Assembly: GCF_016806735.1 (NCBI RefSeq)
Contig: NZ_CP060530.1
Span: forward strand, 240,001 to 272,000
Direction: 5' to 3'
Origin: Candidatus Micrarchaeum sp.
GTDB taxonomy: Archaea; Micrarchaeota; Micrarchaeia; Micrarchaeales; Micrarchaeaceae
Length of the DNA: 32,000 nucleotides
In this document: piece after piece, positions 10,384 through 28,400 of the stretch
Layout of the letters: every line of letters starts with the position of its first letter
Numbering within the stretch: the first letter of the stretch is position 1
Position numbers and translations under genes: made by a program
The notes under the pieces: model-generated
The model's input: only the letters and a program-made list of their open reading frames with translations
Told to the model about the DNA's origin: nothing
The model's database searches: none

Positions 10384-10985
10384 GCATGCATGGAAAGGAG
10401 CCAAAAGACGAAAACTTCGGTTTCTTCACGTCGAGGCTTTACAAAGTATTCTCGAACACTTTTCCAAGCATGAAATCATTCTACTCGTTCATACTTTCCG
10501 ACATCGCGAATTACAAGTTCTCATCCATGCTAGACATAGGTTGCGGCCCAGGTATTCTGGATGTGAAAATTGCGCAGATGTTTCCCAAAGCCAAAATATG
10601 CGGGATAGATCCATCAAAGGACATGATAAAGCAGGCGGATTCGCTCTCCAAGCGAATGGACATCAAAAACCTCGAATTCGCAATAGGCAAAAACACCGAA
10701 ATACCCTTCGATCTTCAATTCGATATTGTGATAACTACCTTGTCATTCCACCACTGGGCTGTAAAGCGCAAGGCCTTGGAATACATAGCCAAGCGCATTG
10801 CTCCCCGGGGCAAAATGGCAATATATGAATTCCTCAAGCCCGAAAAGGGCATGGGAATTTCTGGAAGCCATTCGCTTAGCGTAAGGGAAGCAAATACATA
10901 CTCCAATATTCCCGGCCTTGAGCCGGCAAAAGTGTCAACAGAAAAAGGATTCATAAAGGTAATTCTGGAAAAGTCTTCTAAGTAG
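10380..10985 (+). CDS. class I SAM-dependent methyltransferase
   Basis: Motif I LDIGCGPG, followed by ICGIDPS and DIVITTLSFHHW. ATG 10380 overlaps the cysS TGA as ATGA, which suggests translational coupling. The track start 10362 lies inside cysS. Confidence 0.75.
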   Translation: MSMHGKEPKDENFGFFTSRLYKVFSNTFPSMKSFYSFILSDIANYKFSSMLDIGCGPGILDVKIAQMFPKAKICGIDPSKDMIKQADSLSKRMDIKNLEFAIGKNTEIPFDLQFDIVITTLSFHHWAVKRKALEYIAKRIAPRGKMAIYEFLKPEKGMGISGSHSLSVREANTYSNIPGLEPAKVSTEKGFIKVILEKSSK

Positions 10986-13347
10986 TGGAATTGGCATAGC
11001 TTATCTTGAATATCCTGCTGTCCGAGTTCTGGTAAATGAGTTTCATGCTTACTCCTGTTCCATTTCCATAATCGCAGCTTGCCTTCGAGCATCCGTAAAG
11101 GAACTCGAACATGTTGCTTCTAGTAAAGTTTTGGCCAACGAGCGCTGCACTAGTTATATTGTGCCCGGAATATGTCATGAAGAACGTATAATTCACAGGC
11201 GATCCGGTCACGTTGTGCTCTATATAAGTGCCATTTGCGAAATTGTACAAAATGGTGTGCTTTAAGATGGTGTATCTGCCGTTGCTTCCCAACGCCGTTT
11301 CGACATCGCCAGGGTTGGAGAGATTCAGAAGCATTACGCCTTCGAGGCCGCTGTTTCCCTGCGCTACAAAGAAAATTCTTTCGAACGTGCTGTTGCTTGT
11401 TACGTTTACGCTGCTGAATGCGTCATAGCCATAAGTTGCTGCTATCGTGTTGCTCAGGTTGCCTTCGGTAGCTATGCCTCCGAGTTCCTGCAGCCAATAA
11501 TATCTTGCCAGAAGGTATTCTGGCCTATGCGTCTCGTTTAATAGGTAATGTGCATCCGGGCTTGTGTTTAGTATAAATCTTGCGAAGCCTGCTATAAGCT
11601 TAGGATTCTGGCCTCCAACGCTGTCCATTGCACTGGTCCTGTTCGCCCAGCCCTCTATGACAGAGCCATCAGGCCAAACTGCCAGGAATGTTGCGTTGCT
11701 CGGGGTATTATTTTTCACCCATGTAAGCGCAGAAAGGAAATTGGCGTTTATGCCGTCAGCCTGTACCGACGTGAAAGACTCTAGATTTGTCAAATAAAGC
11801 ATGTATACGAGTATGAATATAGCTACGGCAGCGAACATGAGCCTGCCATAAGTCCGAATCCCTTTCTTCGCGTTCTTCAAGACATTTTTGTCGAATCCCA
11901 AAAGCCTGCCTATCGCGTAAAGCCCATAAGCTGCAAATATCGCTATAGGCACAGCTACTATCGAATTGAACCTTACCGCATTGATTTGCAGGTAAAAGGT
12001 AGCCACGAAATAAGCAAGCATTACCAAGAATTCGGGCGAGAACTTGAGCCTGTGCAGCATCGTGTACTTCTGTCCCGGGTGTATCCTGTCTGCAAAGAGC
12101 AGGTAAAGGATTATGCCGACCGGAGCAAGAAAGAGCTGGTACGCAAAGCTTGCCCAAAGGAATGCAAACGTCGGAGGCTGCAGCTCCTGTATTGTGGTAT
12201 CCAGGTGGCTGCTCGCTATCACGAGCCCGTCGCCGCTAGCCACCTGCGCAAGGAATCCTCCGAAGAATACGAGGATTACAACCAAAGCTACTACTATTAC
12301 CGCAACAACAAATTTTGCCCTTGCTGCCATGTTCATAGTAAATGAAGGGAACCTGTTTCTTTCCCGTATAAGGTAATAGGCAAGAAGCGTGCCTATAACT
12401 ACCGGGCCATAGAATATGAAGAAGTGCAGGCTTGAGAGTGCCTGCGTTCCCCTTATTATTGTAAGTGCCATCCACATGTGCTGCATCGCATATGTCAGCA
12501 GCAGCGCAAAGGTCAGCAAAAGCGAATCCTTGAGCAGCTGAAGGTCAGACGTTATGTAACCAAGCACTGTTATTAATATTACTGCAAGCATGTACACTAT
12601 TATTGTAAACGGCGCGCCATTCCACACTGCGGTGCCAACTCCCAGGACGAAAGCAGCCAGCAGCGCAAATAGCACCTTCTTTCTGGCGCTCTTGGCCCTG
12701 AATACCGCTATAAAGAATATGAGCGAAAGTATCATGAAAGAGGTTATGAAGCCGTCTCCCCTGTATACGAGCGCAGCTGTCCTGGCTATGTCGCCGCTTG
12801 ATATTGCTACAAAAAACATTGCCAGAAATGCCAGAACCCTGCTTTTGGCAAAATACCTTACAATGTAATATGCGCCTATTGCGTCAAGGACACCGAAGAG
12901 TATTGGCACAAGCCTCATCATGGTGTAATAGCTTGCACCGAAGTACCTCAATACCGCATACGGAAAAAGCGTGACGAAATAGAGTCCCAGCGGCTCCGTG
13001 ATCGGGAAATGCGTAGGAAATCCTGAAAGAACCAACGTCTTAGGTATTGCAAACCCGTGCGTGACCGCGGCCCTTATGACCGAAAAATGATAAAAGCCGT
13101 CGGGCTCAAAGAATCCTGCATACTTAAGCATCCCGGTCCTTAGGTATATGTCAAGTATTATTACGATTATGAAAAGCGCTATTGCAGCATAGCCGTATTT
13201 GCCTATGGTGAACCTGGCCTTTTTGCCGTTACCTGCATTGGCATTATGCTCTGCTGGCGTTGACGAGTCAGCTCCAACGCTGACCTGCGGTATGCTCTCC
13301 TCGTGCTTCTCGGCAATCTCCGGTTGTGCTTCCTGTCCAGAATCCAT
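10978..13347 (-). CDS. aglB: AglB/STT3-like oligosaccharyltransferase (GT-C fold), degenerate WWDYG motif
   Basis: 789 aa, with a long multi-pass hydrophobic N-terminal region and a soluble C-terminal region. First-loop motif FFEPDGFYHFSVIR (D..YH..R type). VWPDGSVIEGWANRTSAMDSVGG (nt 11647-11676 for WPDGSVIEGW) sits where STT3/AglB proteins carry WWDYG. Overlaps the convergent methyltransferase by 8 nt. Confidence 0.65.
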   Translation of the reverse strand: MDSGQEAQPEIAEKHEESIPQVSVGADSSTPAEHNANAGNGKKARFTIGKYGYAAIALFIIVIILDIYLRTGMLKYAGFFEPDGFYHFSVIRAAVTHGFAIPKTLVLSGFPTHFPITEPLGLYFVTLFPYAVLRYFGASYYTMMRLVPILFGVLDAIGAYYIVRYFAKSRVLAFLAMFFVAISSGDIARTAALVYRGDGFITSFMILSLIFFIAVFRAKSARKKVLFALLAAFVLGVGTAVWNGAPFTIIVYMLAVILITVLGYITSDLQLLKDSLLLTFALLLTYAMQHMWMALTIIRGTQALSSLHFFIFYGPVVIGTLLAYYLIRERNRFPSFTMNMAARAKFVVAVIVVALVVILVFFGGFLAQVASGDGLVIASSHLDTTIQELQPPTFAFLWASFAYQLFLAPVGIILYLLFADRIHPGQKYTMLHRLKFSPEFLVMLAYFVATFYLQINAVRFNSIVAVPIAIFAAYGLYAIGRLLGFDKNVLKNAKKGIRTYGRLMFAAVAIFILVYMLYLTNLESFTSVQADGINANFLSALTWVKNNTPSNATFLAVWPDGSVIEGWANRTSAMDSVGGQNPKLIAGFARFILNTSPDAHYLLNETHRPEYLLARYYWLQELGGIATEGNLSNTIAATYGYDAFSSVNVTSNSTFERIFFVAQGNSGLEGVMLLNLSNPGDVETALGSNGRYTILKHTILYNFANGTYIEHNVTGSPVNYTFFMTYSGHNITSAALVGQNFTRSNMFEFLYGCSKASCDYGNGTGVSMKLIYQNSDSRIFKISYANSTT

Positions 13348-13511: not shown

Positions 13512-13545
13512 ATCGAACTATGCCGCGCTCAGGTCTGGAGATATC

Positions 13546-15552
13546 ATGGATACCACAAAATACAAAGCGATAGCTTTCGTCTTCATGTTTTCATTTATTC
13601 TCATTGCATCCTATTCATCATATTCGAATGCGAATACGGTTGCTGTCAATGCTTCGATAAATGCCGTGTGCCAGTTCGCACTGTACAATACGCATTCTGT
13701 CGTTTATCCGCTGCTCTCAAACATTTCGGTCAGCTTTGCCTCCCAAGATCTTGCAAACTGCTCAATATCAAGCATGCCAGGCACTATGACAGTTTTCTAT
13801 CCTAACGGTACCAGAGCCTTGAACTTCAGCTCTGAGTTCTACAATTTTACAGATTCCCAGACACAATACAATTTTCCCGCTTCTTTCAACGGCCTCAAGC
13901 AGGGCAATTATACCGCAAACATAACCCTCAAAGAGACGCCCACATACAAAAATTCGACTACAATATCGCTAATACTTCTCAATCCTCCGAACGTTATAGC
14001 CAGCAACATGATAGTGGGAAACGTAAGCTATGGCTCTCAGCTTCCTGTTTCCCTGCGCCTCCATAACAACGGTTCCCTGGCCTCAAACACGATCACGCTT
14101 TATATAAGAATAAACGGCACTGCCGCGTTCAATAAAAGCTATGTCCTAAGCCCAATAGCCCCTAACCAGACATTCCCAATAATACTGTCACTAAGCAATG
14201 TCACCAACACTCCCGGCCCATACAAAATATATGCATATGCTGGCTTCAGCGAATATGGCAGGACGTTCCTGTCTAATGTGGTAAAGGCGAACTACACCGT
14301 TCCATCTCCTCCCTCTACTTCGAAAATACCCTCTAACAGAACTACTACGCCAATAGTAAAGCCTCCTTACGTGGAGATAACTACGGTGCCTATATACTCT
14401 TCAATACCTTACGGTACTTCTGCCGTATCGTCGCTAGGGCTTAAAGACATAATAGCACAGCCAGAAACCGTCACGCTAAGCATAAACAGCTCGTATTCCA
14501 ACCTGATGAGCATTTCGGCTACTTCCCTTTCGCTCAAAGCGAACCAGACCGAACTGGTGCAGGTATACGCCAATGGAAAATCCAACAAGCCAGGCAGCTA
14601 CATAGTTCCGATAGCGATAAACGCCACCTTGGCTAACGGCACATCATCCCTGCAAACCGAATATGTATCGTTTACCGTTTACAATAAGACAAATTCAACG
14701 GCATCAATAAATTACAACGTAGCTCTGCAAAATGACACAACGTCCGCTCTAGGCACTGTTACAGTTTCAGGTGCCGTAAATACGAGCCTGAAGAACACAA
14801 CACTGCTCACCATAATACCGGAGGCAGAGGTTTCATCGTCAAACGACATAAACGCCTACGGCCTGCCTAACAGGATAGAAGTCGTCAACAATTCCTATTA
14901 TATAATATGGAACATAAGCAGCATACCCGCATCCAAGCAGGTAATAGTGTATTATTCGATAAGTAATCCGAAAAGCCAGTCTCTTCTCAGCGACATACAG
15001 AACATACTATACTCTCCTTCTTCCATATCCTTCCTCAAGCTTTTCAAGATAACAAGCCTTTCACTCCCCACGCTCTTTACAAATTCATACGGGCTAATCA
15101 ACGTTTCTGCAATATATACTGGGGTATTGCCGAGCACGGTATCGCTTTATCTCGTAAGCTCCACCGGGCTCAAGGCCATAAACGCTTCATACAGCCAGGG
15201 TATAGTGCCAAACCAGCAGGTTTTCCACTCTTTCAGGGTAGCTTCAGGTCCGGTTCCTGGGACGTATCTGCTGTACATGTATGCTTCCGCTGCAGGCGTA
15301 AACTACAACTATACGCTGCCCCTGCTGGTTGAAAAGCTGGTTCCATCAACTACCGTGCTCACAACAGTGCCGCCTACTCCGGTGCTCGAAAGAAACATAT
15401 ACACCTATGCCGCTTATGCGGCTATCGCCATAATATTGATAGCAATCGCCACGTACGCTGCATATAAATATAAAAACAAGCCCAGATACAATCCGAAAGT
15501 TGCAAAGGAGCTTGTAGAGATCACCAAAAAGGAGCGTTCTAAGAAGGGTTGA
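13546..15552 (+). CDS. secreted, C-terminally membrane-anchored, sequon-rich beta-sandwich (CARDB-like) surface glycoprotein; S-layer-type candidate
   Basis: Sec-type signal MDTTKYKAIAFVFMFSFILIASYSSYSNA. Very dense N-x-S/T sequons (NAS, NIS, NCS, NGT, NFS, NFT, NYT, NIT, NST within the first ~130 aa). CARDB-like segments, e.g. LRLHNNGSLASNTITLYIRINGTA...GPYKIYAYAGF and FRVASGPVPGTYLLYMYA. C-terminal TM YAAYAAIAIILIAIATYAAY followed by the basic tail KYKNKPRYNPK...KKERSKKG. Confidence 0.7.
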   Translation: MDTTKYKAIAFVFMFSFILIASYSSYSNANTVAVNASINAVCQFALYNTHSVVYPLLSNISVSFASQDLANCSISSMPGTMTVFYPNGTRALNFSSEFYNFTDSQTQYNFPASFNGLKQGNYTANITLKETPTYKNSTTISLILLNPPNVIASNMIVGNVSYGSQLPVSLRLHNNGSLASNTITLYIRINGTAAFNKSYVLSPIAPNQTFPIILSLSNVTNTPGPYKIYAYAGFSEYGRTFLSNVVKANYTVPSPPSTSKIPSNRTTTPIVKPPYVEITTVPIYSSIPYGTSAVSSLGLKDIIAQPETVTLSINSSYSNLMSISATSLSLKANQTELVQVYANGKSNKPGSYIVPIAINATLANGTSSLQTEYVSFTVYNKTNSTASINYNVALQNDTTSALGTVTVSGAVNTSLKNTTLLTIIPEAEVSSSNDINAYGLPNRIEVVNNSYYIIWNISSIPASKQVIVYYSISNPKSQSLLSDIQNILYSPSSISFLKLFKITSLSLPTLFTNSYGLINVSAIYTGVLPSTVSLYLVSSTGLKAINASYSQGIVPNQQVFHSFRVASGPVPGTYLLYMYASAAGVNYNYTLPLLVEKLVPSTTVLTTVPPTPVLERNIYTYAAYAAIAIILIAIATYAAYKYKNKPRYNPKVAKELVEITKKERSKKG

Positions 15553-15563
15553 GGTTCTTCAAA

Positions 15564-16310
15564 ATGACAAAAACATATAGCATAATCATTGCTTCCATAA
15601 AGGGCGGTGTCGGAAAGACCACCGTGGCGGTCAACCTTGCAATAGCGCTAAGCATAGCCGGATACAAGACATTGCTCTACGAAATGGACACGGTAAATCC
15701 GGGGGTGGGCTATCACCTAGGCAAGCTTGACGACGAATCCCGCGTTCAGGTTTACAAACCGACTGGGCTTCAATATGTTCCTGCACGCGTATCAGAATCT
15801 TCCGATGCAATGGTGCCAGAGCGCGTCTCGCAGCTGGAATCGGAAATTAAAAATGGCGACTATGATTTTGTGATAGTAGACACGCAATCGGCCGAAAAAT
15901 CCCTGTTGAAGAAACATTTTGACAACGGCCTTATAATAATAAATCCGGACGAGCAGTCTTGCGCTGCCGGAATAATGGCCAAAGACATGGTCGAATCTTC
16001 AGGTGCCAAATGCAATATAATGCTGAACAGGGGGTTCGAAAAGCCTTATGCGCTTAGCGACAAAGAGATAGAAGAGATGTTTGGAACTCCGATAATGGCC
16101 AGGGCAGAAGAGGACCTTTCGTTGCGCAAGAGCCTTCTGAGCCATGTTCCGAATGTCCTGACAGAAAATGCACCTAAATTCAATGACCAGATAAACAAGC
16201 TGGCGAGAGTATATGCTGCGATGATTGACGAAGATTACGCGCAAAAGTTCGAAAATTTCAGCAAGGAACTCAACAGGGCGAAATCCGAAATCAAAAAATT
16301 GCAGAAGTAA
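15564..16310 (+). CDS. MinD/ParA-family (SIMIBI) P-loop ATPase with deviant Walker A
   Basis: SIKGGVGKTTVAVNLA (xKGGxGKT deviant Walker A with signature Lys), Walker B-like DFVIVDT, and a C-terminal charged/amphipathic stretch NFSKELNRAKSEIKKLQK. GAGGT lies 8-12 nt upstream of ATG 15564. The track start 15549 (TTG) overlaps the upstream stop. Confidence 0.8.
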   Translation: MTKTYSIIIASIKGGVGKTTVAVNLAIALSIAGYKTLLYEMDTVNPGVGYHLGKLDDESRVQVYKPTGLQYVPARVSESSDAMVPERVSQLESEIKNGDYDFVIVDTQSAEKSLLKKHFDNGLIIINPDEQSCAAGIMAKDMVESSGAKCNIMLNRGFEKPYALSDKEIEEMFGTPIMARAEEDLSLRKSLLSHVPNVLTENAPKFNDQINKLARVYAAMIDEDYAQKFENFSKELNRAKSEIKKLQK

Positions 16311-16323
16311 AACACTTGGTCGA

Positions 16324-16470
16324 ATGAGAAGCGAAACAGTCAAAGCGTCTGCAGGTTTTGCAGGAAAGCCACTAAGGCAGCAGAGCGTTGTGGAATTCGT
16401 ACTTACATATGGCTGGGCCATACTTCTCATTGCCATAGTGCTGGGTGCGATGTACGCTGTCGGCCTTTTC
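16324..16470 (+). other. class III (type IV pilin-like) signal peptide and hydrophobic pilin helix
   Basis: Short basic leader ...KPLRQ | QSVVEFVLTYGWAILLIAIVLGAMYAVGLF. With cleavage before the second Gln, Q is +1 and E is +5. The E[FY].xTYGWAIL helix is the form I recall from archaeal class III signal peptide proteins. Confidence 0.7.
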
Positions 16471-19400
16471 AGGCCCAGCATACCTACAACATGCCTTCCA
16501 AATTCCGGGTATCTGTGCGAATCCCCTATAATGAATACTAGCGGCTATGTTGCAGTAAAGTTCGGAACTGTCAACCAGCAAAACATAGTAATAACGGGCC
16601 TGGGATGCTCGAGCGGAGACGTCGTGCCTTCAAATATAAGCTCAACCAATCTGCCTGTTTCCTCTGGCCAAGTAAAAGCCCTTGTCTTCAAGTGCCCGGT
16701 CCAGGCCCATTCAATAAATTCGCATTTTACCGGCACTCTATGGCTTCAATATACTTCCGACGGCATACCTGGCCAGCTGGGCGAAATTGGTACTCTTAGC
16801 GCGGCCGAAAGCACTCCTGACATAGTCGCTACTGCTTTCGTAAGTTCAAATTCCACATCAACAAGCACAAGCACGACTTCGACTAGCACATCCACAACTA
16901 CCACTTCAACTTCAACGACTTCAACTTCTACCACTACCTCTACGTCTACTATTCCGTACGTGCCAATAATACTTAAAAATTCACAGTCGTCAAACACTCC
17001 TGCGCCGTTCCAGCAGATGGTCATAGCCAACAGCACAAAATACGCAAGCTATATCCATTCCGGATGGTCCAATGTCGAATTCACCACCGGGCCAGCAGCA
17101 ACTGGCAATACTATAAGCGCATGGATAGAAAGCAATGCAACAAATTCATCCAAGACTACCGTAGTATGGCTAAAACTATTGTCAGGAATAAAAGCAAACA
17201 ATTCCAGCGTAGTATACATGGATTTCATGCCTGGCAATGTGCTGTCCTCCAACGGGCCAACCGGCGAAGCTCCTCAGCTTTCGCCATCATACGCCGAATA
17301 CGACGACGGTGCAAGCGTGTTCGACTTCTACGCTAATTTCGCAGGAACATCTTTGTCGTCAAACTGGACGTCTGGAGAAAGCGACGGAACCATTTCGGTA
17401 AATAACGGATTGACGGAAACAATACCGTATGATGCTGCAACTGGCAGCTATACATATGTTTCTACCTCACTGTATAAAATCAATGGTCCCGTAATTGCAG
17501 AAAGCTATGCCAACCTGAACGGGTTTGATACTACTAATTTCAGGATGGTCCCGGTAGCATTAACTCAATACAATAATCAGACTTGGCACGCAGATAATAG
17601 TGAAAATGAAAACGCAGCGGGGTGGTCTGGTAATGTTCAGGCCAATCCAACAATATCGGCAGAAACAACTACTTCGTCAGCAGCTGACGAATTTGAAAGT
17701 TCACAGATTTCGTCAAGTAACGCCTATCAATTATTTGGAATATTATATCCAGATAATGGTTCTGTATCAGTCCAATATAATTACCAAAATTGGGGTTCAA
17801 CAACAACTTACGTGCCATCAACACCTCTTTATCTGACAATATCGAATTGGTTAAATCCGGCGCAATCGGAGTACTCAACAACATATCCTATTAATGTTGA
17901 TTGGATACGTGTACGCGCATATCCGCCCAACGGCGTAATGCCTTCTGTCACTTTCTGGAATCAGGATGCTTCGCCATTATTAAAAATACAGAATAATACA
18001 ACAGTTTATGCATCATCAAATGATATAATAAATGCAACCGCCCTATTTCCAAATACAAGCATCGAACTACTAAGAAACGGTAGTGTCATAGCTTCCGGGA
18101 CGGGCAGCGTATCGTATATATTGAATTCCAACAGCAGTTCTACATGGGCGGCAGGCAGATACTATATAACCGCTTACGAACCCGGGGTAGGGGTTCCAAA
18201 CACTATACAAAATATTACTATATCAAAAGCAACTCCAAAAATAAACGAAAGCGTAAGCAATCTCAATACATTTAACACAGGAACAATTTACAACTACAGC
18301 ATCAAATATTCTGTAAATTCCTTCGACAACCAGCTTGATGCATACCTTTCAATAAATGGGATAAATGTATCATCAACTAACTCCATAAGCACCTACACTT
18401 TCAATATGTCAAATACTACTTCATTTTATGCTTTTACACCTGGCAACGCCAACTATACTGCGGTTGCCTTAAACAAGACAAGCGTGTATGTGGTAAGGTA
18501 TCCGTACTACGTGCCCATAACAATATACAACAACCAGTCAAGCAATACTCCGGCCCCGTTCCAGCAGCTCATAAAAATAAACATGTCAAAATACGCTAAT
18601 TATGCATCCGATAACCTTAGCAACATTTTCTTCTTCTACCAAAACAAGACTATAATACCTTCTTGGCAGGAGAGTGGCACAGCAGGGGCTACATTCAACG
18701 GCGCGCCTGCTTATATGATGCAAGAAGGCGGATATAAATGGATGAACAACGCAGCACAGCACTTTACAATATCTATATGGGTAAATCCTTCCTCACCAAA
18801 CGGCGTAATACTAGACGAGCTGAACCAAAGCGATAGCTGGCATGACTCCTGGCTAGACTTAGTTAATGGAAACGTACAAATGAGGATATGGAATCTAGGG
18901 TGCGTGAATCTCGGTGCTATACCAGATAATCAGTGGAGCAACATAGTAATGGAGTACAACGGTTCTACTTATTCCGGATACATTAACGGCAACTTTGCCG
19001 GATCTGGCACCGGAACGCGTTCGGTCCCTGGCGGTTCATATGCCCTGTCCTACGCACTTGGCAAGAACGATACAACGAATTGCGGCTCAGGCTCTGCATT
19101 TGACGGGCTTATGCTTAACTACCAAATATACAACACAACGCTGCAGCCCAGCGGCATAAAAAGCATATATTCAAATGGAAAATACGGAACACCTCCATTC
19201 AATTCGTCCGAAGGGCTAAGCGGCTGGTGGCAGCTCAAATACAACTCCAGCGCACAGGAAGGCGGTGACAACATGGTATACAGCAACGTCAACTTTACAA
19301 GCTTGAATACTTATTATTGGCTCAAGCTCAATAATGGCATACCTGCGAACAGCAATCTTACTGTATACATGGGCTTCGCCAACAAGAGCGACATGCTGTT

Positions 19401-22400
19401 CAATAAACTTACAACCGGCGAAGCCCCGCAGCTTTCGCCATCATACGCCGAATACGACGACGGTGCAAGCGTGTTCAACAACTACTGGAACTTTGCTGGA
19501 ACAACGCTGCCAAGTGGATGGACATCTACTACAGATTTTACGGGAAGTGTCAATAATGGACTAACAGTTACAAGCTCCTCTGCTTGGGCTGGTGTTGCTT
19601 CTGGTGCAATTACTGCATCCCCGCCAATCATATTGGATGCTTATGACGAAGTTACTTCAGAGCAAGCAGCTAACATTGGCTTCAGCTCAGGCACAAGTTT
19701 TAGTTCGACTTATTCATATTACGATTCTTACCAATACCTCCAGGCATCTGGCTCTTCGTACACGACAGCAAATATATATTATGCTACAAGTTCGGCGCAA
19801 ACGGCTATTGTTACTGGCACGCTTCCTACTGCATCGAACTCTGGGTATAATGTTTATAGCGCGGTATTCACTGCTTCAAACGTGGCGCAGCTTCAAAACT
19901 ATGCAAGCGTAGATTCCGCATCAACTACTGATTTATCATCCGCTTCGTATGTTTTTGCTTCAGTATACAGTGGAGCAACGGAAAAAATCCAGTGGATGCG
20001 TACGCGTGCATATCCTCCCAACGGCGTAATGCCTAGTTATAACATAGGGCTTACTTACGCTCCTGCTGCCCCAGAACTGCTAATAAACAAATCTACGATA
20101 TCATATGGACACACGGACGCCATAGCTACATCCTCACAGATAAGCGGTGACGAGGTAGAGCTTTCGATAAACGGCAATGTTGTTTCGGGACCGACGTCGA
20201 ACACAATAAATTATGATTTCCCAATAAGCGTTCCAGGAACTTACATAGTAAATGCTACCAATATAAACAATTCAAAAACTACCTCGCTGCAAATTACTGT
20301 AGTAAAAGCCGTTCCTGAAATCCACGGCCCAAAACCGGGATTTTATTCTAATAGCTACAATTCCACGTACTCAATCTCTACAGTTTCGAATCAGCTTACA
20401 GGAAACCTGTACGTAAACGGCGTAAAAGTCTCCGCGACGAACTCGTCCAATACTATAGAATTAAACGCCCTGGGCACATATGCGCTTATATTCAATACTA
20501 CTGGCAATGCAAATTATACTTCTGCAACAACGGGCATAATAAATGTAGACATAATAAACCAGAGCGTGCCATATAAAATTCCCGATAACATCTATTATTA
20601 TTCAGTAGTGCATGTGCATAACAGCCAATCTGTTCCTACAATAAAGCAGCCACAGGAATACCTGCAAATAAACGCGAGTGCATTTGAAAATTATATAAAC
20701 TATAACTACAGCAGTGCAAACTTCGAATTCTTCTCGGCTAACGGCACAATCGTGCCAGGGTGGATAATAGATAATGTTTCAGGCGAAATAGGCATATGGC
20801 TAAAGCTGCCCGAAAGCATACCTGCAGGGTCAAACGAGACTGTTTATCTGGGTTTTGCACAAAAGGCCACAAACCTTCTCTCAAGCTCAGGCACAACAGG
20901 CATAGGCGAGGCACCACAGTTAAGCTCAACCTACGCCGAATACGACGACGGTACAGGCGTTTTCCAGGCCTATTTCAATGGGGTAACTCCACTTTCAGAT
21001 TTCAGCGTCCAGAGTGGTTACAGCTCAGCTCAGGCATCCGGCCAGTGCGCTACAAGCCTCAATTGCAGGTCAAGCACGGTCTATTACATAAAGTCATCAG
21101 GATCTGGGGCAAGGGCGTTCGACGTTGCATACAACAAGGCATTTCCAGATAACGCAACATTAGTGCTGGGATCGAACATAGATACGACGCTAACCAACGA
21201 AGGCTTCGTGAGCCTAGGCGCAGCTTCAATGTCCTCTTCTCCTCCTGGGATAGACTATTCTGCAGGAAACGGAGACTCGTTATCAACTACGTGGCTACAG
21301 GGCGGCAACTATGGCGGTTCTCCTGGTTCAACTTCATCCACACCTCCACCATATCTTTATTACGAAATGAGTTATGTGCCAGGAGCATCTGACGTAGTAA
21401 GCACGATATACGACGAGGGTGCTTCCGTAAGCTATAACAACTATATTCCATCTTCATACTCAGGAGGTCTATACATAGGGATAGCATCCGCGACAGAATA
21501 CGTAAACGAACTGGACTACTCTAGCTGGATGGCAGCTGCACAGTCCACAAGCACTGGCGTATTCCCTGCAGCAAACGTTACAAGAAATGCGCAGCCTGTA
21601 GGTTCTATAGAGCTCCTAATAAACAGCCAAAGGGAAAACACAACTCTGAATTACTCAATAATAAATATAACTGCAACATCCCTTTCCGGAATATACTCAA
21701 CAGACACTGTAGAAGTGCTGCTAAACGGCAATATTATATGCACAGGAGTTGGAACATGCACCTACGATAGCCCTATCGCAGCCTCAACTTCAACATATAA
21801 CGTTACAGCAAAGAACTTGAATACTTCAGCCGAGCGGACCTTCGGCCTCAAGGTGGACAAGGCCGTTCCGGAAATAAGAACAAACGCACCATATTACGGG
21901 ATTAACAACGGAACAATGTACTACTCGGTCAACACTATAAATTCGCAGATAAGGGCTTACTTGTATGTGAATGGAGTCCAGGTTTCCAACACAATAAGCG
22001 AATCGAGCTACGTAGTAAATGCCATAGGCAACTACAGCCTGTATGCTTCTACGCCAGGAGATTCAAACTATACCAATTTTACAACGCCGACAAAGACAAT
22101 GCACATAATACCTTCGCCAAAGTTCTTTATCCCCATACTCATAACAAACAACCAAAGCGTAGCTACTCCGGCCCCGTTCCAGCAAGAGCTCACGTTCAAC
22201 AGTCTAACGTATAAATATGCCGAAGCTGGCAACCTTGACAACGTTCTATTCTTCTATGCAAACGGAACCGTAGTACCTTCATGGCTCGAATCAGGCAACA
22301 GCAACACTAGCACAAGCACGATATACTGGCTCAACATAAGCCACGGCATTCCAGCAAAGAGCTCTATAACAGTATACCTTGGCATTACAGCCAAGAACTA

Positions 22401-25400
22401 TAGCGTATTTAACAACGTGTCAATCGGCGAAGCAGCACAGCTGTCATCCCCATACGGCGAATATGACAATATTGCCCATGTAATGGACAAGGGGCTCCTA
22501 TACCAGATATGGGGCTGGGGCGGCTCAGGCATACAGTCGCAGTCGGAACTATACCAGTCTAGCATGACTCCAGGGTCCAGCTTCACTTTTGGCACTACCA
22601 CAGCAACGGCGTCCCAGACATTGTATAATGCCAACTTTACCGGAGTTACGGAAGACGTTGACGGTTCATCGGAGCCATACGTAATAATAAACTACCAGAA
22701 CGGCTATTCTGGAGGAGCACCGCCTCCAAACCCTCCGGTATCAAACGACAATTTCTGGCTTCTCAAAGCGATAGGATTCGTGCATTACACATCTGGCGTA
22801 TCTCTCTACGGGATAGCTGACGACGCCATAGGCTTGGGATATAGCCAATATTCGACAGGCAGCATAGGGTCCTGGATCGGAGGTACAAACAATCCAAACA
22901 ACACGATAAGCGAATGGAAAGCAGAGGGTGCAACCGTATATTCAGGCACAATATCGAGCAGCGGGGATTATCCGATAGAACTAGATTTCGAGAACCAGAA
23001 TGGCCCTGGGTATATAGGCATGTGGTCGAATTCACCTCTAAATTACTACTCTGCAGCATATCCTCCTGACGGCGTAATGCCGAGCGCTGGTGTGGAAGCC
23101 ATAAACGGGCCTCCAGCGCTGAACATAACCTACGATACCATAGCGTATTCGAACACAACGGATTATATATACGCCACTGGACGCCCTTCGAACAACACTG
23201 TCGAAATACTCATAAATGGAAACGTTGTCGATACGGGCATAGGGACATTGAACTACACTCTGCCAATACTTCCTGCAGGAACATACAAAATAGAGGCATA
23301 TGACACTAACAAAAACCTTTCAACAAACGGCACCATAACTATAATCAAAGCAGTTCCTGAAATAACAGAGACAAGCGGCGGCACATATTCCAAAAACTAT
23401 ACGATAGGCTTCGCTTCCAACACTGTAAACGACCAGCTTACGCTCAACCTTTACGTGGACAATGCAATAGTGGCATCCACAAATTCCGTTTCAGACTATC
23501 CAATAAACAAGGTGGGCAATTACACATTCTTCGCAGGCACTGCAGGCAATGCCAACTACACGGCCAGGAATCTTACTTTGCAGCAGCTGCACGTGATACC
23601 TAAACAGGTGCCATCAATTGTTCCTAATGACATTGCCTATTATGTTCCGATTGTGATAGCCAACAATCAGCCAGTCGCTACGCCTGCGCCCTTCCAGGAA
23701 ATGCTTACTGTCGATAGCGCGCTGTATAAGCAATATGAAAACGGCTCTTTGGAGAACGTCAAATTCTTCTATTCAAACGGCACCACAGTGCCCTCGTGGC
23801 TCTATTCTGGCAATTCGAACCACAGCACCTCTTCGATATACTGGGTAAAGCTTTCCGGAGGCATAAGCGCAGACTCGTACCAGACAATATTCATGGGATT
23901 CAGCACAATGGAAGCCGTCATAATGAACAACAGGACAACCGGTGAAGCCCCACAGCTGAGCAAGGTATATGGCCAGTATGACGATATAGCTGGCGTAATG
24001 AACCCTGGCCTGCTATACGAGGTGTATTACAACGGTGCCGTAACCGGATGCGTCCCGACTGATAACGACGTATATGCTGCAGTAGTGTACAGCGGCTATT
24101 CGATAAACGGATCATGCAGTCCAATAACTTCGAGCACGCTGCCATCGCTGACTCCGGTAACCGGGACATCTCAGTCTGTTGACGGAACGGGGGAGAACAA
24201 CGTGCTTATAAACGTTGAAGGGGGCTATACCGGCGGCTCTCCGTTCCCGAACCCCCCAGTTTCCAACTACGATGATATAATAGTCACCAAGAGCATAGGA
24301 TTTGCAGATTCAAAGCAGCCTGTCAATTTCTATGTCAAAATAGACGATGCAGGCCAGCTCGGCTATTCGAACTACACCCTTAACGGCTCGGAAGAAAACT
24401 GGCTGGGCAGTTATTCAAATTCCTACAATATAATCAACGAATGGCACGCCGAAGCCGCAACACAATACAATGGCATAGTGACTGGCACAGGCGCCTACCG
24501 CATACAATATGACTACGCCAACCAGGGCGGTCCAGGCTATTGGAGCTTATGGTCCAATTCAAGCGTTAACTATTACAGCCCTTCTGCACAGCCAAACGGC
24601 GTAATGCCCGCTTACACAACAGGCCAGCTCGGCTACGGCATGAACAGGCTTATAATAGCCAATAACCCCGCACAGTACCACGTAAAGAGCGGGGTCATAG
24701 CTGTAGGGCTAAACCTTACCAACAATATCGACATATATGTCAATGGCTCATTCGTCAAAAACGGCACTGGCATAGTCAATTATACCGAAGACAACCTTCC
24801 ACTTGGCAATTTCAGCGTCAAGAGCGTGAACCTGGCAACAAGCAACACCATAACCGAAAACCTGCGCATAATACCGAACGACCCGTTCCTTATAATACAG
24901 TTCCCGCAGTCGCTCTACGGGGACCAGAACAATATAACTGGAATATCAAACGTCACAGGTGACAGGATAGAGCTGCGCCTCGAGGACGGAGTCATACTGT
25001 CAACAGCATCAAACACTGTTGTTTACGATGGCAATACGCTAAAGCCCGGCAAGTACAACATAACCGCAATAGACCTAAACCAGCCGGCATATTCGCAAAC
25101 AAAAAGCCTTACGATACTGCCTCCGAACGTGACTCTTAGCATACAGCACCAAACTGCACTATATTATACTAATGACCTTCTGAACGCAACGACCTCCCAG
25201 CCGCTAGACCATGTGACCATAGCCATAAACGGCACGGTTGTCGCAAATTCGACTTCGAAGACTTCATATACGGAAAACTCGCTGCCCCTGGGGGTTTATC
25301 CTGTGCAGGCGTGCGATGCGGATTCGCTCACGTGCACCAACATCGAAAACCTTACGATAGCTCCTAACGACCCGCACATATCCATACAAAACAGGCTTGC

Positions 25401-28400
25401 CGAATTCGGCCAGAACGACACGATAACTGCAACGTCAAACGTCACCGGAGACAATGTCAGCATAATAATAAACGGGAAGGTTGTGGCATCGGGCGCAGGT
25501 GCTGCATACTTCAATACTGCGTCGCTGGTTCCTGGAACGTACAACGCCACTGCTGAAGATACTGTGCAGCCGGCTTATTCGCAGCCCTTGCAATTCGAAG
25601 TGACCGGCCAGGTGGTTTCACCTGCAGGAATACTTAACTATGTTCCAATACTGATAACAAACAACCAGAGCGTAGCTACGAAAGCGCCATTCCAGCAGAT
25701 GATAGAAGTAAACGCCCAGAACTACGTCTCATACGAATCCGGAGGCATGCAAAATGTCGAATTCTCCTACTCAAACGGCACCATAATACCTTCGTGGTTC
25801 GAGGGCAGTCTGGCAAACGAATCCAAAACGACATCCCTCAACGAGTCTGCAGGCGATGTTTACTGGCTTAAAATAGCAAACGGCATCCCAGCAAAGAGCT
25901 CCATAACAGTATACATGGATTTCGCGGCAGTAGGCAAGAATCTGCTCAATTCAAATTCAACCGGAGAGGCCCCGCAGCTAAGCTCAACATATGCGCAATA
26001 TGACAACGGTGCGAACATATTCAACAATTATTGGAATTTCGCCGGGACATCGATGCCGAGCGGATTTACCGAATACTCAAATGGCGGTTCTACGAGCGTT
26101 GACAACGGCCTCAACATTGATCTTGCAAGCAGCGGAGATTATATGTCATTCGTATACGGGACTCCAATAAGTGCAAATGACACGATAGTTGAGACCTACG
26201 ATTCTGGAACAAGGGGCAATGGCCCTACAGACCTTGGAATGTACCAGTCAAACAGTGGCAGTGCAGGCGGCTATGCCGGCGTTGCAAACACGTGGGGCTG
26301 GGGATATGGCACCATAAGCAGCGGCTACAGCAACCTGGGCAGGCCTTTCGACATTTCCGACGGCGACGGTGTAGCTAGCATATACTGGATAGGCAGCGGA
26401 AACGAGGGCGTAGGGTGGAATTATGATTTTGTTTCAAGCACAAACACCAACGAGGCGTTCCATAGCAGCGCATACATGACAATCGGAATCGGCTATGCAG
26501 CTGCAGGCTCCGACATCAATTATTACTGGCTCCGCACAAGATATTATCCTCCCAACGGCGTAATGCCTTCAGTAGACTTCGGCACTGAGAGATCAACAAC
26601 TGGCGCTTATCTAAACATAAGGCACAATCCATCGCTCTACAGGACAAACGACACTTTCACCGCAATAGCTTCGAATGCCACTTACATAATAGAAATACTC
26701 AAGGACGGCACCCTTGTCTCAAGAGGCTCGGGCAGCACTTCCTACACCGAAAACGATTTTGCCATAGGCGCATACAATATAACTGCAGACAACCTCAACA
26801 CCGGCAATACTACAACGCTAAAACTTTCAGTGATACAAAATCCTCCAAGGCTGAGCGTATCTAAAACAAAGCTTCTATTCGGCCAGGAGGACACAATAAG
26901 CGCCTATTCGAACGTCACCGGAGACAAGATTGCGATAGAAATATCCAATTCCATAGTTTCTGAAGGAATAAACAACGCCACATATGCAGAAACAAACTTA
27001 AGCATAGGCAACCACACGGTAGTGGCTGAAGACCTAAACGCCAGCAACTTGGCCCAGTCGGCACCACAGGTCATAACGGTTCTCAAGAACCCGCCAAGGC
27101 TTGAGATTGAATCCTCAAATTCGCCTTACGGCAAGGACGACAATATCACTGCAATATCCAATGTCACCGGCAACAGGGTTCAGATACTGGTCAACAACGC
27201 AATAGTCGCGAACGCAACTGGCACCACAGTATACAACGCCAACACGCTGACAGTCGGTACATACAACATAACAGCAAGGGACATAAGCCCCAACGACACT
27301 TCGCAGACGTCCAACACCCTTACCATAGAACCTCCAAACATAGAGCTATATTTCACATCCAATCCGAGCTTCTATGGCAACAGGAACGAAATTACCGCGG
27401 AAGCCTCGATTGGCATCGACAACGTTACGCTTAGCATAAACGGAAACTTAGTGGCAATAGGCGTTGGCAAGGCTAACTTCACAGAATCAAATTTCAGCGT
27501 GGGCAACTATACTGTCCAGGGCTGCGACACTACTGCGAAGTTCTGCACAGCCAATACAACGCTAAGGGTGGAGCCGAACCCTCCACTGCTGACAATCCAG
27601 CACAATCCGATGCTGTACGATCAGGACAACAACATAACTGCAAAAGCCAACAATACTGGGTCAGGCATAAAGCTGCTGATAAATGGCACGGTTGTAGAAA
27701 ACGGCACCAATGAGGTCTTCTACAACGCGAAATCGCTGGCTCTCGGCACATACAACATAACCGCGGAAAGCCTGAGCGACAACGTGCTTGCGGTAACAAC
27801 TGCAAAACTCACAGTCAACAAGAACCTTCCGATACTGTCGATACAGAACCGCACTCCGCTATACAGGAATACAAACCTCATATCGGTGCTGGCAAATGTA
27901 ACAGGATATCCGATAGAGCTCTTAATAAACGGCACAGAGGTGGCCAACGGAATAGGAAACATAACCTATGATGCGGACACGCTCAAGCCTGGCAACTATT
28001 CTGTCATAGCTGCAGATACAAATTCGTCCAATCCATCTACCGTAAATTCCACGATAAAGGTCCTGGCTCCAAAGGTATCAATAACTCCTGTCAAAGGATC
28101 ACCGGAATACGGGCTTAACTTCACCCTTGAGGCCAACACCACGCAGAAACTCGATACCGTCAACATGTCAATAGGCAACACTCTTATAGGAAGGTCAGCT
28201 TCGCATTTCAACTATACAGAGGACAATTTGAGCATAGGCACATACAACATAACCGCGTGCGATGTCAATGCAAGCGTGTGCGCAAAGTACTCGCTCACAA
28301 TATCCAAAAATTATCCTTCGCTGAAGCTCAGCCAGAATCCGTCGCCATACGGAACTCCGAACTATGCAACCGTAAACACGTCACTGCACGGCAAGGTTGT

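What the first reader, a model, noticed from the sequence alone, without database searches (positions are those of the whole stretch)
16324..16842. A complete pilin-like N-terminus (class III signal + 4-Cys head) is fused to ~4,900 aa of cargo
From ATG 16324 the protein reads MRSETVKASAGFAGKPLRQ|QSVVEFVLTYGWAILLIAIVLGAMYAVGLF. This is a short basic leader, then Q at +1 and E at +5, then a ~25-aa hydrophobic helix with the TYGWAIL signature I associate with archaeal class III signal peptide proteins. A ~120-aa segment with four Cys follows (TTCLPNSGYLCES...GLGCSS...FKCPV), about the size of a stand-alone pilin head. The -1 residue would be Gln rather than the usual Gly/Ala/Ser, so processing is uncertain. 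In bacterial type IV pili, minor pilins carrying large C-terminal lectin domains sit at the pilus tip and prime assembly. By analogy this could be a tip-located initiator-adhesin. No prepilin peptidase, PilB/FlaI-type ATPase or PilC/FlaJ-type platform gene lies in this window.
Basis: partly seen in the sequence, partly recalled or inferred. Interest (0 to 1): 0.75.

Follow-up and report, generated by a model that had tools for sequence, protein, structure and literature searches.

The report
Giant pilin-headed adhesin of a Micrarchaeon
A 5,094-residue surface protein of the tiny symbiotic archaeon Candidatus Micrarchaeum harzensis starts with a pilin-type module from a large, unannotated Micrarchaeota family, so it looks like an extreme "modular pilin" that could carry a host-binding adhesin, although cleavage and pilus loading are unproven.

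Summary
ATG 16324 opens a 5,094-aa ORF. Its first ~165 residues are a basic leader, the protein's only hydrophobic helix and a 4-Cys beta-sandwich head.

This module belongs to a large family found almost only in Micrarchaeota (5,653 cluster representatives at E<=1e-3). No Pfam or NCBIfam model detects the family. Its consensus is [K/R]-A|QSAMEYLMTYGWAIL, with Gln +1 in 217/217 and Glu +5 in 216/217. That is the signature of substrates of the archaeal prepilin peptidase EppA. Half the members in genomes are stand-alone ~165-aa proteins. The rest carry C-terminal cargo of up to ~1,100 aa. The window protein is about five times larger than any other seen.

[quoted passage not shown] Its published annotation lists an EppA-type peptidase, a CpaF ATPase and two TadC platform proteins elsewhere in the genome.

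The cargo is seven DUF2341/ConA-like modules and at least 26 Ig-like repeats. A MinD/FlhG gene lies 13 nt upstream and the S-layer gene lies just downstream.

Gln at -1 is rare (3/217) and fails the FlaFind rule, so cleavage, and therefore a pilus-tip location, remains inference. I rate this a new variant of a known kind (modular pilins and class III signal-peptide surface proteins). Interest is moderate to high.

The parts
16324..31608 (+). Whole gene, 5,094 aa plus stop. It is Micr_00291 of Ca. Micrarchaeum harzensis A_DKE.
   Evidence: ORF and translation. Same gene call in four assemblies. Locus-tag assignment and from Suppl Data S5 of PMC8975820, which gives a co-culture TPM of 0.95.
16324..16380 (+). 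Leader peptide, aa 1-19 (MRSETVKASAGFAGKPLRQ), net charge +3. Arg is at -2 and an atypical Gln is at -1.
   Evidence: Read from the sequence. Family leaders have a median of 8 aa and a 90th percentile of 21 aa. The family has K/R at -2 in about 199/217 members. At -1 it has A 125, S 38, L 32, G 9, V 4 and Q 3.
16381..16470 (+). Predicted mature N-terminus and hydrophobic alpha-helix, aa 20-49 (QSVVEFVLTYGWAILLIAIVLGAMYAVGLF), with Gln +1, Glu +5 and Phe +6.
   Evidence: Only hydrophobic segment in the protein. Q20, T28, Y29, G30 and W31 are invariant, and E24 is nearly invariant, in 30 family members. AF2 places a helix at residues 22-46 with block-mean pLDDT of about 77-95.
16471..16818 (+). 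Head domain, aa 50-165: an 8-strand beta-sandwich with Cys57, Cys65, Cys95 and Cys124.
   Evidence: C57, C65, C95 and C124 are invariant in alignment A2. Only C57 and C65 are invariant across the stand-alone members in A3, and the domain has 2 or 4 Cys across the family. AF2 mean pLDDT is 83.2. Foldseek matches to archaeal pilins 8fk7, 8q30 and 8fj5 are weak.
16837..16950 (+). Ser/Thr-rich linker, aa 172-209, between the pilin-type module and the cargo.
   Evidence: Read from the sequence. The role as a flexible, probably glycosylated tether is inferred.
16948..31233 (+). Cargo: seven DUF2341 + ConA/LamG-like modules. In aa they are about 209-548, 726-1245, 1423-1775, 1932-2262, 2437-2775, 3103-3425 and 4656-4970. 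Ig-like repeats lie between them.
   Evidence: Pfam DUF2341 scores 29.6 and 24.1 bits against a cut-off of 23.4. Laminin_G_3 has E=5.6e-14. Seven NNQS..TPAPFQQ and seven GEAPQLS motifs are present. The seven modules align.
26638..30279 (+). Tandem array of 15 Ig-like repeats of about 80 aa (aa 3439-4652). They are part of at least 26 such repeats in the protein.
   Evidence: Iterated HMM self-search. Pfam Big_3_5 has E=4.4e-11.
31234..31605 (+). C-terminal ~124-aa domain with no transmembrane segment and no sorting-signal-like tail.
   Evidence: Translation and hydropathy scan. No Pfam hit.
15549..16310 (+). MinD/FlhG-type P-loop ATPase (Micr_00290, arCOG00589). Its stop is 13 nt before the giant gene. 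ATG 15564 is the alternative start.
   Evidence: [quoted passage not shown] The family's association with archaeal T4P is described in PMC4858521.
13546..15552 (+). 668-aa type I membrane protein (Micr_00289) with an N-terminal signal, weak CARDB-like similarity and a C-terminal transmembrane anchor. It is probably the first gene of the same operon.
   Evidence: Translation. CARDB match is below threshold, E=0.0077. Spacing and an AT-rich upstream region. The operon is inferred.
10978..13347 (-). AglB/STT3 oligosaccharyltransferase, transcribed divergently. It is a candidate glycosylating enzyme for the 205 N-X-S/T sequons of the giant protein.
   Evidence: Pfam STT3 E=1.8e-9 and TIGR04154 E=5.8e-22, which is below its cut-off. 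Sequon count. The functional link is inferred.
31983..32000 (+). Probable start of slp_Mh (Micr_00292), the S-layer protein gene. It runs off the window.
   Evidence: ATG at 31983. Micr_00292 follows Micr_00291 and is the S-layer protein. The exact start was not verified.

Best explanation
Coordinates 16324-16842 encode the N-terminal carrier module of Micr_00291, a 5,094-aa surface adhesin of the DPANN archaeon Ca. Micrarchaeum harzensis.

Shown:
- The module is a true member of a large, lineage-specific, so far unannotated family of type IV pilin-like proteins.
- The family has an EppA/Flp-type class III signal. Its consensus is K/R-A|QSAMEY followed by TYGWAIL, a hydrophobic helix and a disulfide-containing beta-sandwich head.
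- Members are either stand-alone ~165-aa proteins or are fused to diverse extracellular cargo.

Inferred mechanism:
- The basic leader stays in the cytoplasm.
- The single helix inserts N-in/C-out, and the ~4,900-aa cargo is exported and N-glycosylated.
- The cargo is seven DUF2341/ConA-like lectin-type modules on at least 26 Ig-like stalk repeats. It projects beyond the S-layer and binds glycans on the Thermoplasmatales host or in the biofilm matrix.

Most likely, but unproven:
- The module works as in bacterial modular pilins. The genome's EppA-type peptidase (Micr_00634) trims the leader. The CpaF/TadC machine (Micr_00442, 00444, 00445) then lifts the helix out of the membrane onto the end of a short filament built from stand-alone family members. 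A subunit this bulky could only sit at the tip.
- The upstream MinD/FlhG ATPase would regulate or position this step.
- Gln at -1 may make cleavage slow or absent. In that case the same helix simply anchors the adhesin in the membrane.
For: Family membership:
- E=7.8e-49 to a stand-alone 165-aa homologue.
- 5,653 representatives at E<=1e-3 and 3,388 clusters at E<=1e-5, mostly labelled Micrarchaeota.
- More than 599 genomic matches, almost all in Micrarchaeota MAGs.

Class III signature in the family:
- -2 is K/R in about 199/217.
- -1 is Ala in 125/217.
- +1 is Gln in 217/217 and +5 is Glu in 216/217.
- +6 is Tyr in 194/199.
- 80/96 stand-alone members satisfy a FlaFind-type rule.
- These are the features reported for EppA substrates in M. 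maripaludis (+1 Gln, +5 Glu; PMC3875500).

Size classes: 52 of 97 genomic members are 140-200 aa and 32 are 350-700 aa. Arrays of several family genes occur in 24 of 80 loci.

Cargo diversity in relatives: DUF2341, PKD, NHL, Kelch and WD40-like propellers, and InlB B-repeats.

Structure: helix 22-46 plus a beta-sandwich, pLDDT 83. Archaeal T4 pilins appear at ranks 2, 7 and 11 of the PDB fold search.

Topology: there is a single hydrophobic segment and no C-terminal anchor.

Machinery elsewhere in the same genome, from Suppl Data S5 of PMC8975820:
- EppA-type peptidase (arCOG02300).
- CpaF ATPase (arCOG01819).
- Two TadC (arCOG01811 and arCOG01812).
- All are transcribed, as is Micr_00291 at TPM 0.95 (one search gives the column headers).

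Context:
- MinD/FlhG arCOG00589 lies 13 nt upstream.
- Large DUF2341 proteins, FleN/MinD, EppA and two TadC are described as hallmarks of clade-1 archaeal T4P systems, with the DUF2341 proteins proposed as tip adhesins (PMC4858521).

Precedent: bacterial modular pilins, including one with a ConA-like lectin module, are modelled at pilus tips (PMC8179133).
Against: - The protein has Gln at -1, seen in only 3/217 family members, and Phe at +6. It matches no FlaFind-type site.
- No Pfam or NCBIfam pilin model hits it or any of 82 relatives, even at E<=1.
- There is no sequence match to solved pilins.
- Fold matches to pilins are weak (TM 0.31-0.44, rmsd about 16 A). They are mixed with other 'TM helix + beta-sandwich' proteins such as PmoB and TRAP.
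- No ATPase, platform or peptidase gene was detected within 6 kb of 80 family loci by a crude motif and BLAST screen, and MinD was near only 1 of 80. The pilus locus in this genome is about 150 genes away.
- Cargo-bearing members deviate from Ala/Gly at -1 far more often than stand-alone ones (60/103 versus 14/96, Fisher p=1e-10). This could mean that many cargo-bearing members are not processed.
- Pili have not been reported for this organism in the papers read.
Confidence: 0.6

Rival explanations
1. Exapted membrane anchor. The pilin-derived module is no longer a peptidase or pilus substrate. The uncleaved helix is a type II signal-anchor and the head acts as a pedestal. The giant adhesin is therefore a membrane-rooted fibril that crosses the S-layer with no pilus involved.
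For: - Gln at -1 fails the FlaFind-type rule, and -1 is non-canonical in 60/103 cargo-bearing relatives versus 14/96 stand-alone ones.
- The gene is not next to pilus assembly genes.
- It sits next to the S-layer gene and an AglB gene, in a cell-envelope island.
- The single N-terminal helix is sufficient for anchoring.
Against: - Gln +1, Glu +5 and the TYGW motif are strictly kept in this protein and in other cargo-bearing members. A charged Glu inside a plain membrane anchor has no obvious reason to be conserved.
- Leu and Ser at -1 are common in the family, so the lineage's peptidase may be tolerant.
- A MinD/FlhG gene of a T4P-associated family is probably co-transcribed with it.
Confidence: 0.3
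2. Ordinary Sec signal peptide. Signal peptidase I removes the N-terminus and the protein is released, or is held only by non-covalent binding to the S-layer.
For: A basic n-region followed by a hydrophobic stretch is also the general layout of Sec signals. The genome encodes a signal peptidase I, Micr_00002.
Against: - The hydrophobic stretch is about 28-30 residues, and AF2 models it as one continuous 25-residue helix. From general knowledge, that is much longer than a Sec h-region.
- No small-x-small site follows it (...AVGLFRPSIP).
- The conserved positions lie at the start of the helix (K/R-A|Q...E-Y), which is the class III layout, not at its end.
Confidence: 0.04
3. Artefact: a mis-assembled or fused repeat region, or a decaying pseudogene, so that the pilin-like start and the cargo are not really one protein.
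For: The gene is very long and highly repetitive, with 15 tandem Ig-like units. In a related nanopore-type contig a homologous gene is frameshifted.
Against: - The frame stays open for 15,285 nt.
- The same 5,094-aa product is called in four independent assemblies, and the upstream neighbour is found on 16 contigs.
- The N-terminus is identical in all four assemblies.
- The gene is present in the closed 989,838-bp genome and is transcribed.
Confidence: 0.02

Closest known systems
Bacterial modular type IV pilins (Streptococcus sanguinis PilB with a vWA module and PilC with a ConA-like lectin module; CofB/TcpB), Raynaud et al. 2021, PMC8179133
   Same: An N-terminal pilin module is joined by a linker to functional modules that are not specific to pili. 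A ConA-like/PF13385 lectin module is among the cargos. The bulk of the cargo implies a tip location. Adhesion is the common theme.
   Different: The bacterial class is defined by IPR012902 (Gly at -1, N-methylated +1). The largest example noted in that survey is 860 aa. The protein here has an archaeal EppA/Flp-type motif, Gln at -1, a different head fold family with no database model, and 5,094 aa. Its incorporation into a filament is untested.
EppA-dependent Epd pilins of Methanococcus maripaludis (DUF361/PF04021) and the clade-1/'system 1' archaeal type IV pilus
   Same: Gln at +1 and Glu at +5 are shared. The same genome is annotated with an EppA-type peptidase, a CpaF-type ATPase, two TadC genes and a FleN/MinD ATPase. 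System 1 is reported in some DPANN archaea.
   Different: Epd signal peptides end in Gly, whereas this one ends in Gln. PF04021 does not match this protein or its family. The Micrarchaeota family also has Tyr at +6, which is Flp-like and is absent in M. maripaludis pilins.
Large DUF2341 proteins (arCOG03508 and others) encoded in clade-1 archaeal T4P loci and proposed to be PilY1-like tip adhesins (Makarova et al. 2016, PMC4858521)
   Same: DUF2341 domains, large size, association with a FleN/MinD ATPase, and a proposed tip-adhesin role.
   Different: Here DUF2341 occurs seven times and is fused directly to a pilin-type module. The gene lies far from the ATPase/TadC locus. No PilY1-type beta-propeller was detected.
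[quoted passage not shown]
   Same: A class III signal and N-terminal helix are used to display a functional extracellular protein, possibly on a short filament. The genes lie away from the assembly machinery.
   Different: The bindosome cargo is a solute-binding protein and the peptidase is PibD. There is no conserved pilin-like head domain between the helix and the cargo, as far as those papers describe.
Subsystem 4G archaeal TFF loci of Pyrobaculum/Thermoproteus (MinD-like ATPase + S-layer-like protein with a C-terminal TM + large Ig-rich adhesin)
   Same: The same three kinds of gene sit side by side here: the 668-aa protein with a C-terminal TM anchor, MinD, and the Ig-rich giant adhesin.
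   Different: Here the three genes are not linked to an ATPase or platform gene, and the lineage is different. No sequence relationship was tested.
Giant surface proteins of other DPANN archaea (for example the SPEARE proteins of Nanohaloarchaeota; from my own knowledge, not checked here)
   Same: Multi-thousand-residue, multi-domain surface proteins in host-dependent, genome-reduced archaea, which are thought to mediate host contact.
   Different: The domain content is different. No pilin-type N-terminus has been reported for them, to my knowledge.

Membership tests
Archaeal class III (type IV pilin-like) signal peptide, FlaFind-type definition | Cleavage motif [KRDE][GA] | [ALIFQMVED][ILMVTAS]x3 near the N-terminus | tested here: not met
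   The window sequence R-Q|Q-S-V-V fails only at -1 (Gln). The regex finds no match in the first 40 aa. At the aligned site, 80/96 stand-alone relatives and 32/103 cargo-bearing relatives pass. The regex was written from memory of FlaFind; the program itself was not run.
Archaeal class III (type IV pilin-like) signal peptide, FlaFind-type definition | A short, charged leader followed immediately by a hydrophobic stretch of about 20 or more residues | tested here: met
   The leader is 19 aa with net charge +3. The hydrophobic helix spans aa 20-49 and is the only such segment in the protein.
Archaeal class III (type IV pilin-like) signal peptide, FlaFind-type definition | Match to curated profile models (Pfam PF04021 Class_IIIsignal, archaeal pilin N-terminal models, NCBIfam) | tested here: not met
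   The 175-aa, 56-aa and 36-aa N-terminal queries gave no pilin-family hits. None of 82 family members hit such a model at E<=1.
Archaeal class III (type IV pilin-like) signal peptide, FlaFind-type definition | Actual cleavage by a prepilin peptidase (PibD/FlaK/EppA) | not testable with these tools
   This needs N-terminal proteomics or an in vitro cleavage assay.
EppA-type (Epd/Flp-like) pilins | Gln at +1 and Glu at +5 | tested here: met
   Q20 and E24 are present. In the family, +1 Gln is 217/217 and +5 Glu is 216/217. The criterion comes from PMC3875500.
EppA-type (Epd/Flp-like) pilins | Signal peptide ends in Gly (or another small residue) at -1 | tested here: not met
   Gln19 is at -1. 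Q is found at -1 in only 3/217 relatives.
EppA-type (Epd/Flp-like) pilins | The genome encodes an EppA-type peptidase, a CpaF-type ATPase and two TadC platform proteins | tested here: met
   Micr_00634 is arCOG02300 EppA/PulO. Micr_00442 is arCOG01819 CpaF. Micr_00444 and Micr_00445 are TadC. All come from the published annotation table of the same genome. I did not re-derive these from sequence.
Unnamed Micrarchaeota 'QSAMEY-TYGW' pilin-like family (defined here) | Profile match over helix and head, with conserved Q+1, E+5, T-Y-G-W, C57 and C65 | tested here: met
   E=7.8e-49 to P0001. Q20, S21, T28, Y29, G30, W31, F49, C57, C65, G74, C95, C124, G137 and W140 are invariant in 30 sequences, and E24 is nearly invariant (>=90%).
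Modular type IV pilins (sense of Raynaud et al. 2021) | An N-terminal pilin module plus at least one domain not specific to pilus biology | tested here: met
   The pilin-type module is supported. The cargo domains Laminin_G_3, DUF2341 and Big_3_5 are above Pfam cut-offs. The bacterial defining signature IPR012902 was not tested, and no Pfam pilin model hit.
Modular type IV pilins (sense of Raynaud et al. 2021) | Polymerised into a type IV filament | not testable with these tools
   This needs purification of filaments, immunogold labelling or cryo-ET.
PilY1-like / DUF2341 pilus-associated adhesins | DUF2341 domain | tested here: met
   PF10102 scores 29.6 and 24.1 bits against a cut-off of 23.4. 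Seven copies were found by motif search and alignment.
PilY1-like / DUF2341 pilus-associated adhesins | PilY1-type C-terminal beta-propeller | tested here: not met
   No propeller family appears among the Pfam hits for either half of the protein.

The most novel reading that the evidence does not exclude
Micrarchaeota have a lineage-specific, database-invisible pilin family that serves as a universal carrier for surface display, and Micr_00291 is by far the largest modular pilin known. The Epd/Tad-like machine would push it through the S-layer on a short filament. It would then form the thin filaments seen by cryo-ET at contact sites between Ca. M. harzensis and its Thermoplasmatales host (PMC8975820). 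This would make it the primary host-recognition device of a cultivated DPANN archaeon. It would also imply that the lineage's EppA-type peptidase accepts Gln, Leu or Ser at -1.
Probability: 0.2. Interest if true: 0.8.

Novelty: new variant of a known kind. Interest (0 to 1): 0.55.

Why it matters
How DPANN archaea recognise and hold on to their hosts is an open question. Ca. Micrarchaeum harzensis is one of the few cultivated models.

If this protein is displayed by a type IV pilus-like machine, three things follow. It gives a concrete, antibody-addressable candidate for the contact filaments seen by cryo-ET. It extends the modular-pilin principle to Archaea, and to a size about six times beyond the largest bacterial example noted in the 2021 survey. 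It also reveals a family of thousands of pilin-like proteins that Pfam, NCBIfam and FlaFind-type rules miss in whole or in part. That means surface-structure inventories of Micrarchaeota are being underestimated.

The size-dependent variation at -1 also poses a testable question about the substrate range of EppA-type peptidases.

Tried and rejected
- Pfam and NCBIfam scans of the N-terminus at 175, 56 and 36 aa gave nothing relevant. Scans of three homologues and of 82 family members also gave nothing relevant.
- PDB sequence searches with the single sequence and with the family profile gave no pilin match.
- A word-indexed homology search with the first 68 aa returned only one near-identical fragment. 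That search was wasted.
- The genomic context of stand-alone relatives showed no assembly genes nearby.
- A motif and BLAST screen of 80 family loci found only SRP54, ABC transporters, kinases and one MinD. My GxGDxK regex may miss GxHyD-type peptidases.
- I tried to identify Micr_00375 (arCOG07792 pilin) as a family member through cluster look-ups and neighbourhood. This failed.
- AlphaFold2 of a DUF2341/ConA module with only seven internal paralogues gave pLDDT 40.6, so the model was not used.
- A metagenome scan with the window N-terminus found nothing.
- Four assemblies carry an identical N-terminus, so there is no natural variation at -1 to exploit.
- The paper PMC1797317 (the FlaFind/EppA original) is not held.
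- Rejected ideas: a Sec signal (the hydrophobic region is too long and conservation lies at the wrong end); an assembly artefact (the gene is reproduced in a closed genome and is transcribed); and a C-terminal anchor (no hydrophobic tail).
Full report
**1. The observation**

The sequence is as described. ATG 16324 opens a frame that stays open to the stop at 31606-31608 and encodes 5,094 aa. Public gene calls on four independent assemblies use the same start and length. The first 175 aa are identical in all four.

The protein begins MRSETVKASAGFAGKPLRQ|QSVVEFVLTYGWAILLIAIVLGAMYAVGLF. The Cys residues are at 57, 65, 95 and 124. A hydropathy scan finds only one hydrophobic segment in the whole protein, at aa ~20-53, and no C-terminal anchor.

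**2. Source organism**

The upstream 668-aa protein is Micr_00289 of 'Candidatus Micrarchaeum sp.', on a 989,838-bp contig. This is the closed genome of Ca. Micrarchaeum harzensis A_DKE, a cultivated acidophilic DPANN archaeon that grows with a Thermoplasmatales host.

In the published annotation table (PMC8975820, Suppl Data S5):
- The giant gene is Micr_00291. It carries only a ConA-like Pfam hit and no arCOG.
- Its co-culture TPM is 0.95, similar to many housekeeping genes in that table.
- The next gene, Micr_00292, is the S-layer protein SLP_Mh, with a TPM of 124.8.

**3. What the N-terminus is**

Curated models are blind to it. Pfam, NCBIfam and PDB sequence searches give nothing for the N-terminus.

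Homology is nevertheless strong:
- The closest relative is a stand-alone 165-aa protein (E=7.8e-49, 49% identity).
- A profile finds 5,653 cluster representatives at E<=1e-3.
- It finds 3,388 clusters at 90% identity with E<=1e-5. Where named, nearly all are 'hypothetical protein, Candidatus Micrarchaeota/Micrarchaeia' and none has a Pfam domain.
- A genome scan found more than 599 matches, almost all in Micrarchaeota MAGs and often several per genome.

Across 217 N-termini the family consensus is [K/R]-A|Q-S-A-M-E-Y-L-M-T-Y-G-W-A-I-L:

| Position | Result |
|---|---|
| -2 | K/R in about 199 |
| -1 | A 125, S 38, L 32, G 9, V 4, Q 3 |
| +1 | Gln 217/217 |
| +5 | Glu 216/217 |
| +6 | Tyr 194/199 |

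This is a class III (prepilin) layout. Specifically, it is the signature reported for EppA substrates in Methanococcus maripaludis (+1 Gln, +5 Glu). The added E-Y pair is typical of Flp pilins (PMC3875500).

The head is conserved too. C57 and C65 are invariant throughout, and C95 and C124 are conserved in a large subset.

AlphaFold2 with an 82-sequence alignment gives a helix at 22-46 followed by an eight-strand beta-sandwich, with mean pLDDT 83. In a PDB fold search, three archaeal type IV pilins rank 2, 7 and 11: Pyrobaculum 8fk7, Sulfolobus Aap 8q30 and Haloferax 8fj5. TM-scores are only 0.31-0.44, however, and other 'TM helix + sandwich' proteins score alike. The fold is therefore compatible with a pilin but does not prove one.

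**4. The family is a carrier module**

In 80 genomic loci, 52 of 97 complete members are 140-200 aa and 32 are 350-700 aa. The largest is 878 aa from the predicted mature N-terminus. Among the 150 best representatives the maximum is 1,085 aa.

Cargo in the longer members is varied: DUF2341, PKD, NHL, Kelch and WD40-like propellers, InlB B-repeats and Ig domains.

The window protein is thus an outlier, about five times larger than any other member seen. For comparison, a survey of bacterial modular pilins named an 860-aa protein as its most extreme case (PMC8179133).

**5. The cargo**

After a Ser/Thr-rich linker (aa 172-209) come seven modules. Each starts with a DUF2341 domain and ends with a ConA/LamG-like region closing in ...YPPNGVMPS. 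Module 2 has an extra Laminin_G_3 insert (E=5.6e-14).

Between the modules lie at least 26 Ig-like ~80-aa repeats. Fifteen of them form one tandem run at aa 3439-4652. A final ~124-aa domain has no database hit.

There are 205 N-X-S/T sequons, and an AglB/STT3 gene is adjacent.

This is the architecture of a fibrillar, glycan-binding adhesin. That reading is an inference from domain content.

**6. Machinery**

The window has no peptidase, ATPase or platform gene among its called genes. The genome annotation lists the following elsewhere:
- An EppA-type prepilin peptidase (Micr_00634, arCOG02300).
- A CpaF-family ATPase (Micr_00442) followed by two TadC genes (Micr_00444 and Micr_00445) and an 1,103-aa protein.
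- A second FlaI-like ATPase with a Flp-like 68-aa pilin.
- A 159-aa 'pilin with class III signal peptide' (Micr_00375).

All are transcribed. I did not re-derive these assignments from sequence.

Directly upstream of the giant gene, separated by 13 nt, is a MinD/FlhG ATPase of arCOG00589. Makarova et al. list this family, EppA, two TadC genes and large DUF2341 proteins as the hallmarks of clade-1 archaeal type IV pili. They propose the DUF2341 proteins as PilY1-like tip adhesins (PMC4858521). The 668-aa gene, minD and the giant gene are 12-13 nt apart behind an AT-rich region, which suggests one operon (inference).

**7. What remains open**

The protein itself has Gln at -1 and Phe at +6, and it fails a FlaFind-type rule. 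Gln at -1 occurs in only 3/217 relatives.

The -1 residue depends on size. Stand-alone members have Ala/Gly in 82/96, whereas cargo-bearing members have it in only 43/103, with Ser 29 and Leu 19 (Fisher p=1e-10). Either the lineage's peptidase is tolerant at -1, or many cargo-bearing members are cleaved poorly and stay membrane-anchored.

Family genes are not linked to assembly genes in the 80 loci examined. This is also true of pilin genes in several studied archaea, so it decides nothing.

No pili are reported for this organism in the papers I could read. Filaments were, however, seen by cryo-ET at host contact sites.

**8. Verdict**

It is now backed by family-level evidence and by the presence of a matching peptidase and machine in the genome. 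The tip-adhesin and initiator role is a reasonable analogy. It agrees with a published hypothesis for DUF2341 proteins, but it is untested.

My estimates:
- About 0.85 that the module is homologous to type IV pilin-like proteins.
- About 0.75 that the protein is an adhesin.
- About 0.6 for the overall 'modular pilin-type carrier + adhesin' explanation.
- About 0.3 that it actually sits on a filament tip.

The main rival is an uncleaved, exapted membrane anchor (0.3).

I rate it a new variant of a known kind. The concept of modular pilins and class III signal-peptide surface proteins is known. The Micrarchaeota head family, the non-canonical -1 residue and the extreme size are not described in the literature I could search.

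Noticed in passing
window 31983-32000 (runs off the end): An ATG (MKSLNP...) lies 374 nt downstream of the giant gene, behind an AT-rich spacer. It is most likely the start of slp_Mh (Micr_00292), the S-layer protein and most abundant protein of Ca. M. harzensis. The giant adhesin gene and the S-layer gene are therefore neighbours.
   Followed up: partly
window 10978-16310: A cell-surface gene island sits upstream: AglB/STT3 oligosaccharyltransferase (10978-13347, -), a 668-aa CARDB-like type I membrane protein (13546-15552, +) and a MinD/FlhG arCOG00589 ATPase (15549/15564-16310, +). The last two are 12-13 nt from their downstream neighbours, so they probably form one operon with the giant gene. 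The set of C-terminal-TM protein, MinD and Ig-rich adhesin resembles what is described for subsystem 4G type IV filament loci in Thermoproteales.
   Followed up: partly
window 5371-6416, - strand: The ammonium transporter (Pfam Ammonium_transp) is split into two overlapping ORFs of 243 and 113 aa in different frames. It is called as two genes in other assemblies and is missing from one related contig (L001). This points to a frameshifted pseudogene or a strain-variable gene.
   Followed up: no
family-wide (proteins P0001-P0256; loci L010-L089): In the Micrarchaeota pilin-like family, the residue at -1 correlates with protein size. Ala dominates in stand-alone ~165-aa members. Ser, Leu and others are common in cargo-bearing members (Fisher p=1e-10). 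Leu at -1 usually comes with very short leaders (MKL|Q, MAKL|Q).
   Followed up: partly
loci L010-L089, e.g. L060 (5 copies within 12 kb), L036, L052, L070: Family genes often occur several to a locus: 24 of 80 loci have more than one copy on the same strand. Some Micrarchaeota genomes carry many copies, which suggests sets of major and minor subunits or rapid diversification.
   Followed up: no
L005 (ENA contig_67573), gene at 10001-10699: The homologue P0003 has a nonsense-looking C-terminal tail. Neighbouring EF-G and H+-PPase genes are split into pieces. The contig therefore carries frameshift errors, and P0003 is probably the start of a longer protein.
   Followed up: no
loci L011 and L074; cluster members: A few family members and window-identical proteins sit in MAGs labelled Candidatus Acidiferrales bacterium, Methanothrix sp., Marsarchaeota or 'Thermoplasmatales archaeon ARMAN'. 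These are most likely binning or labelling errors rather than real occurrences outside Micrarchaeota.
   Followed up: no
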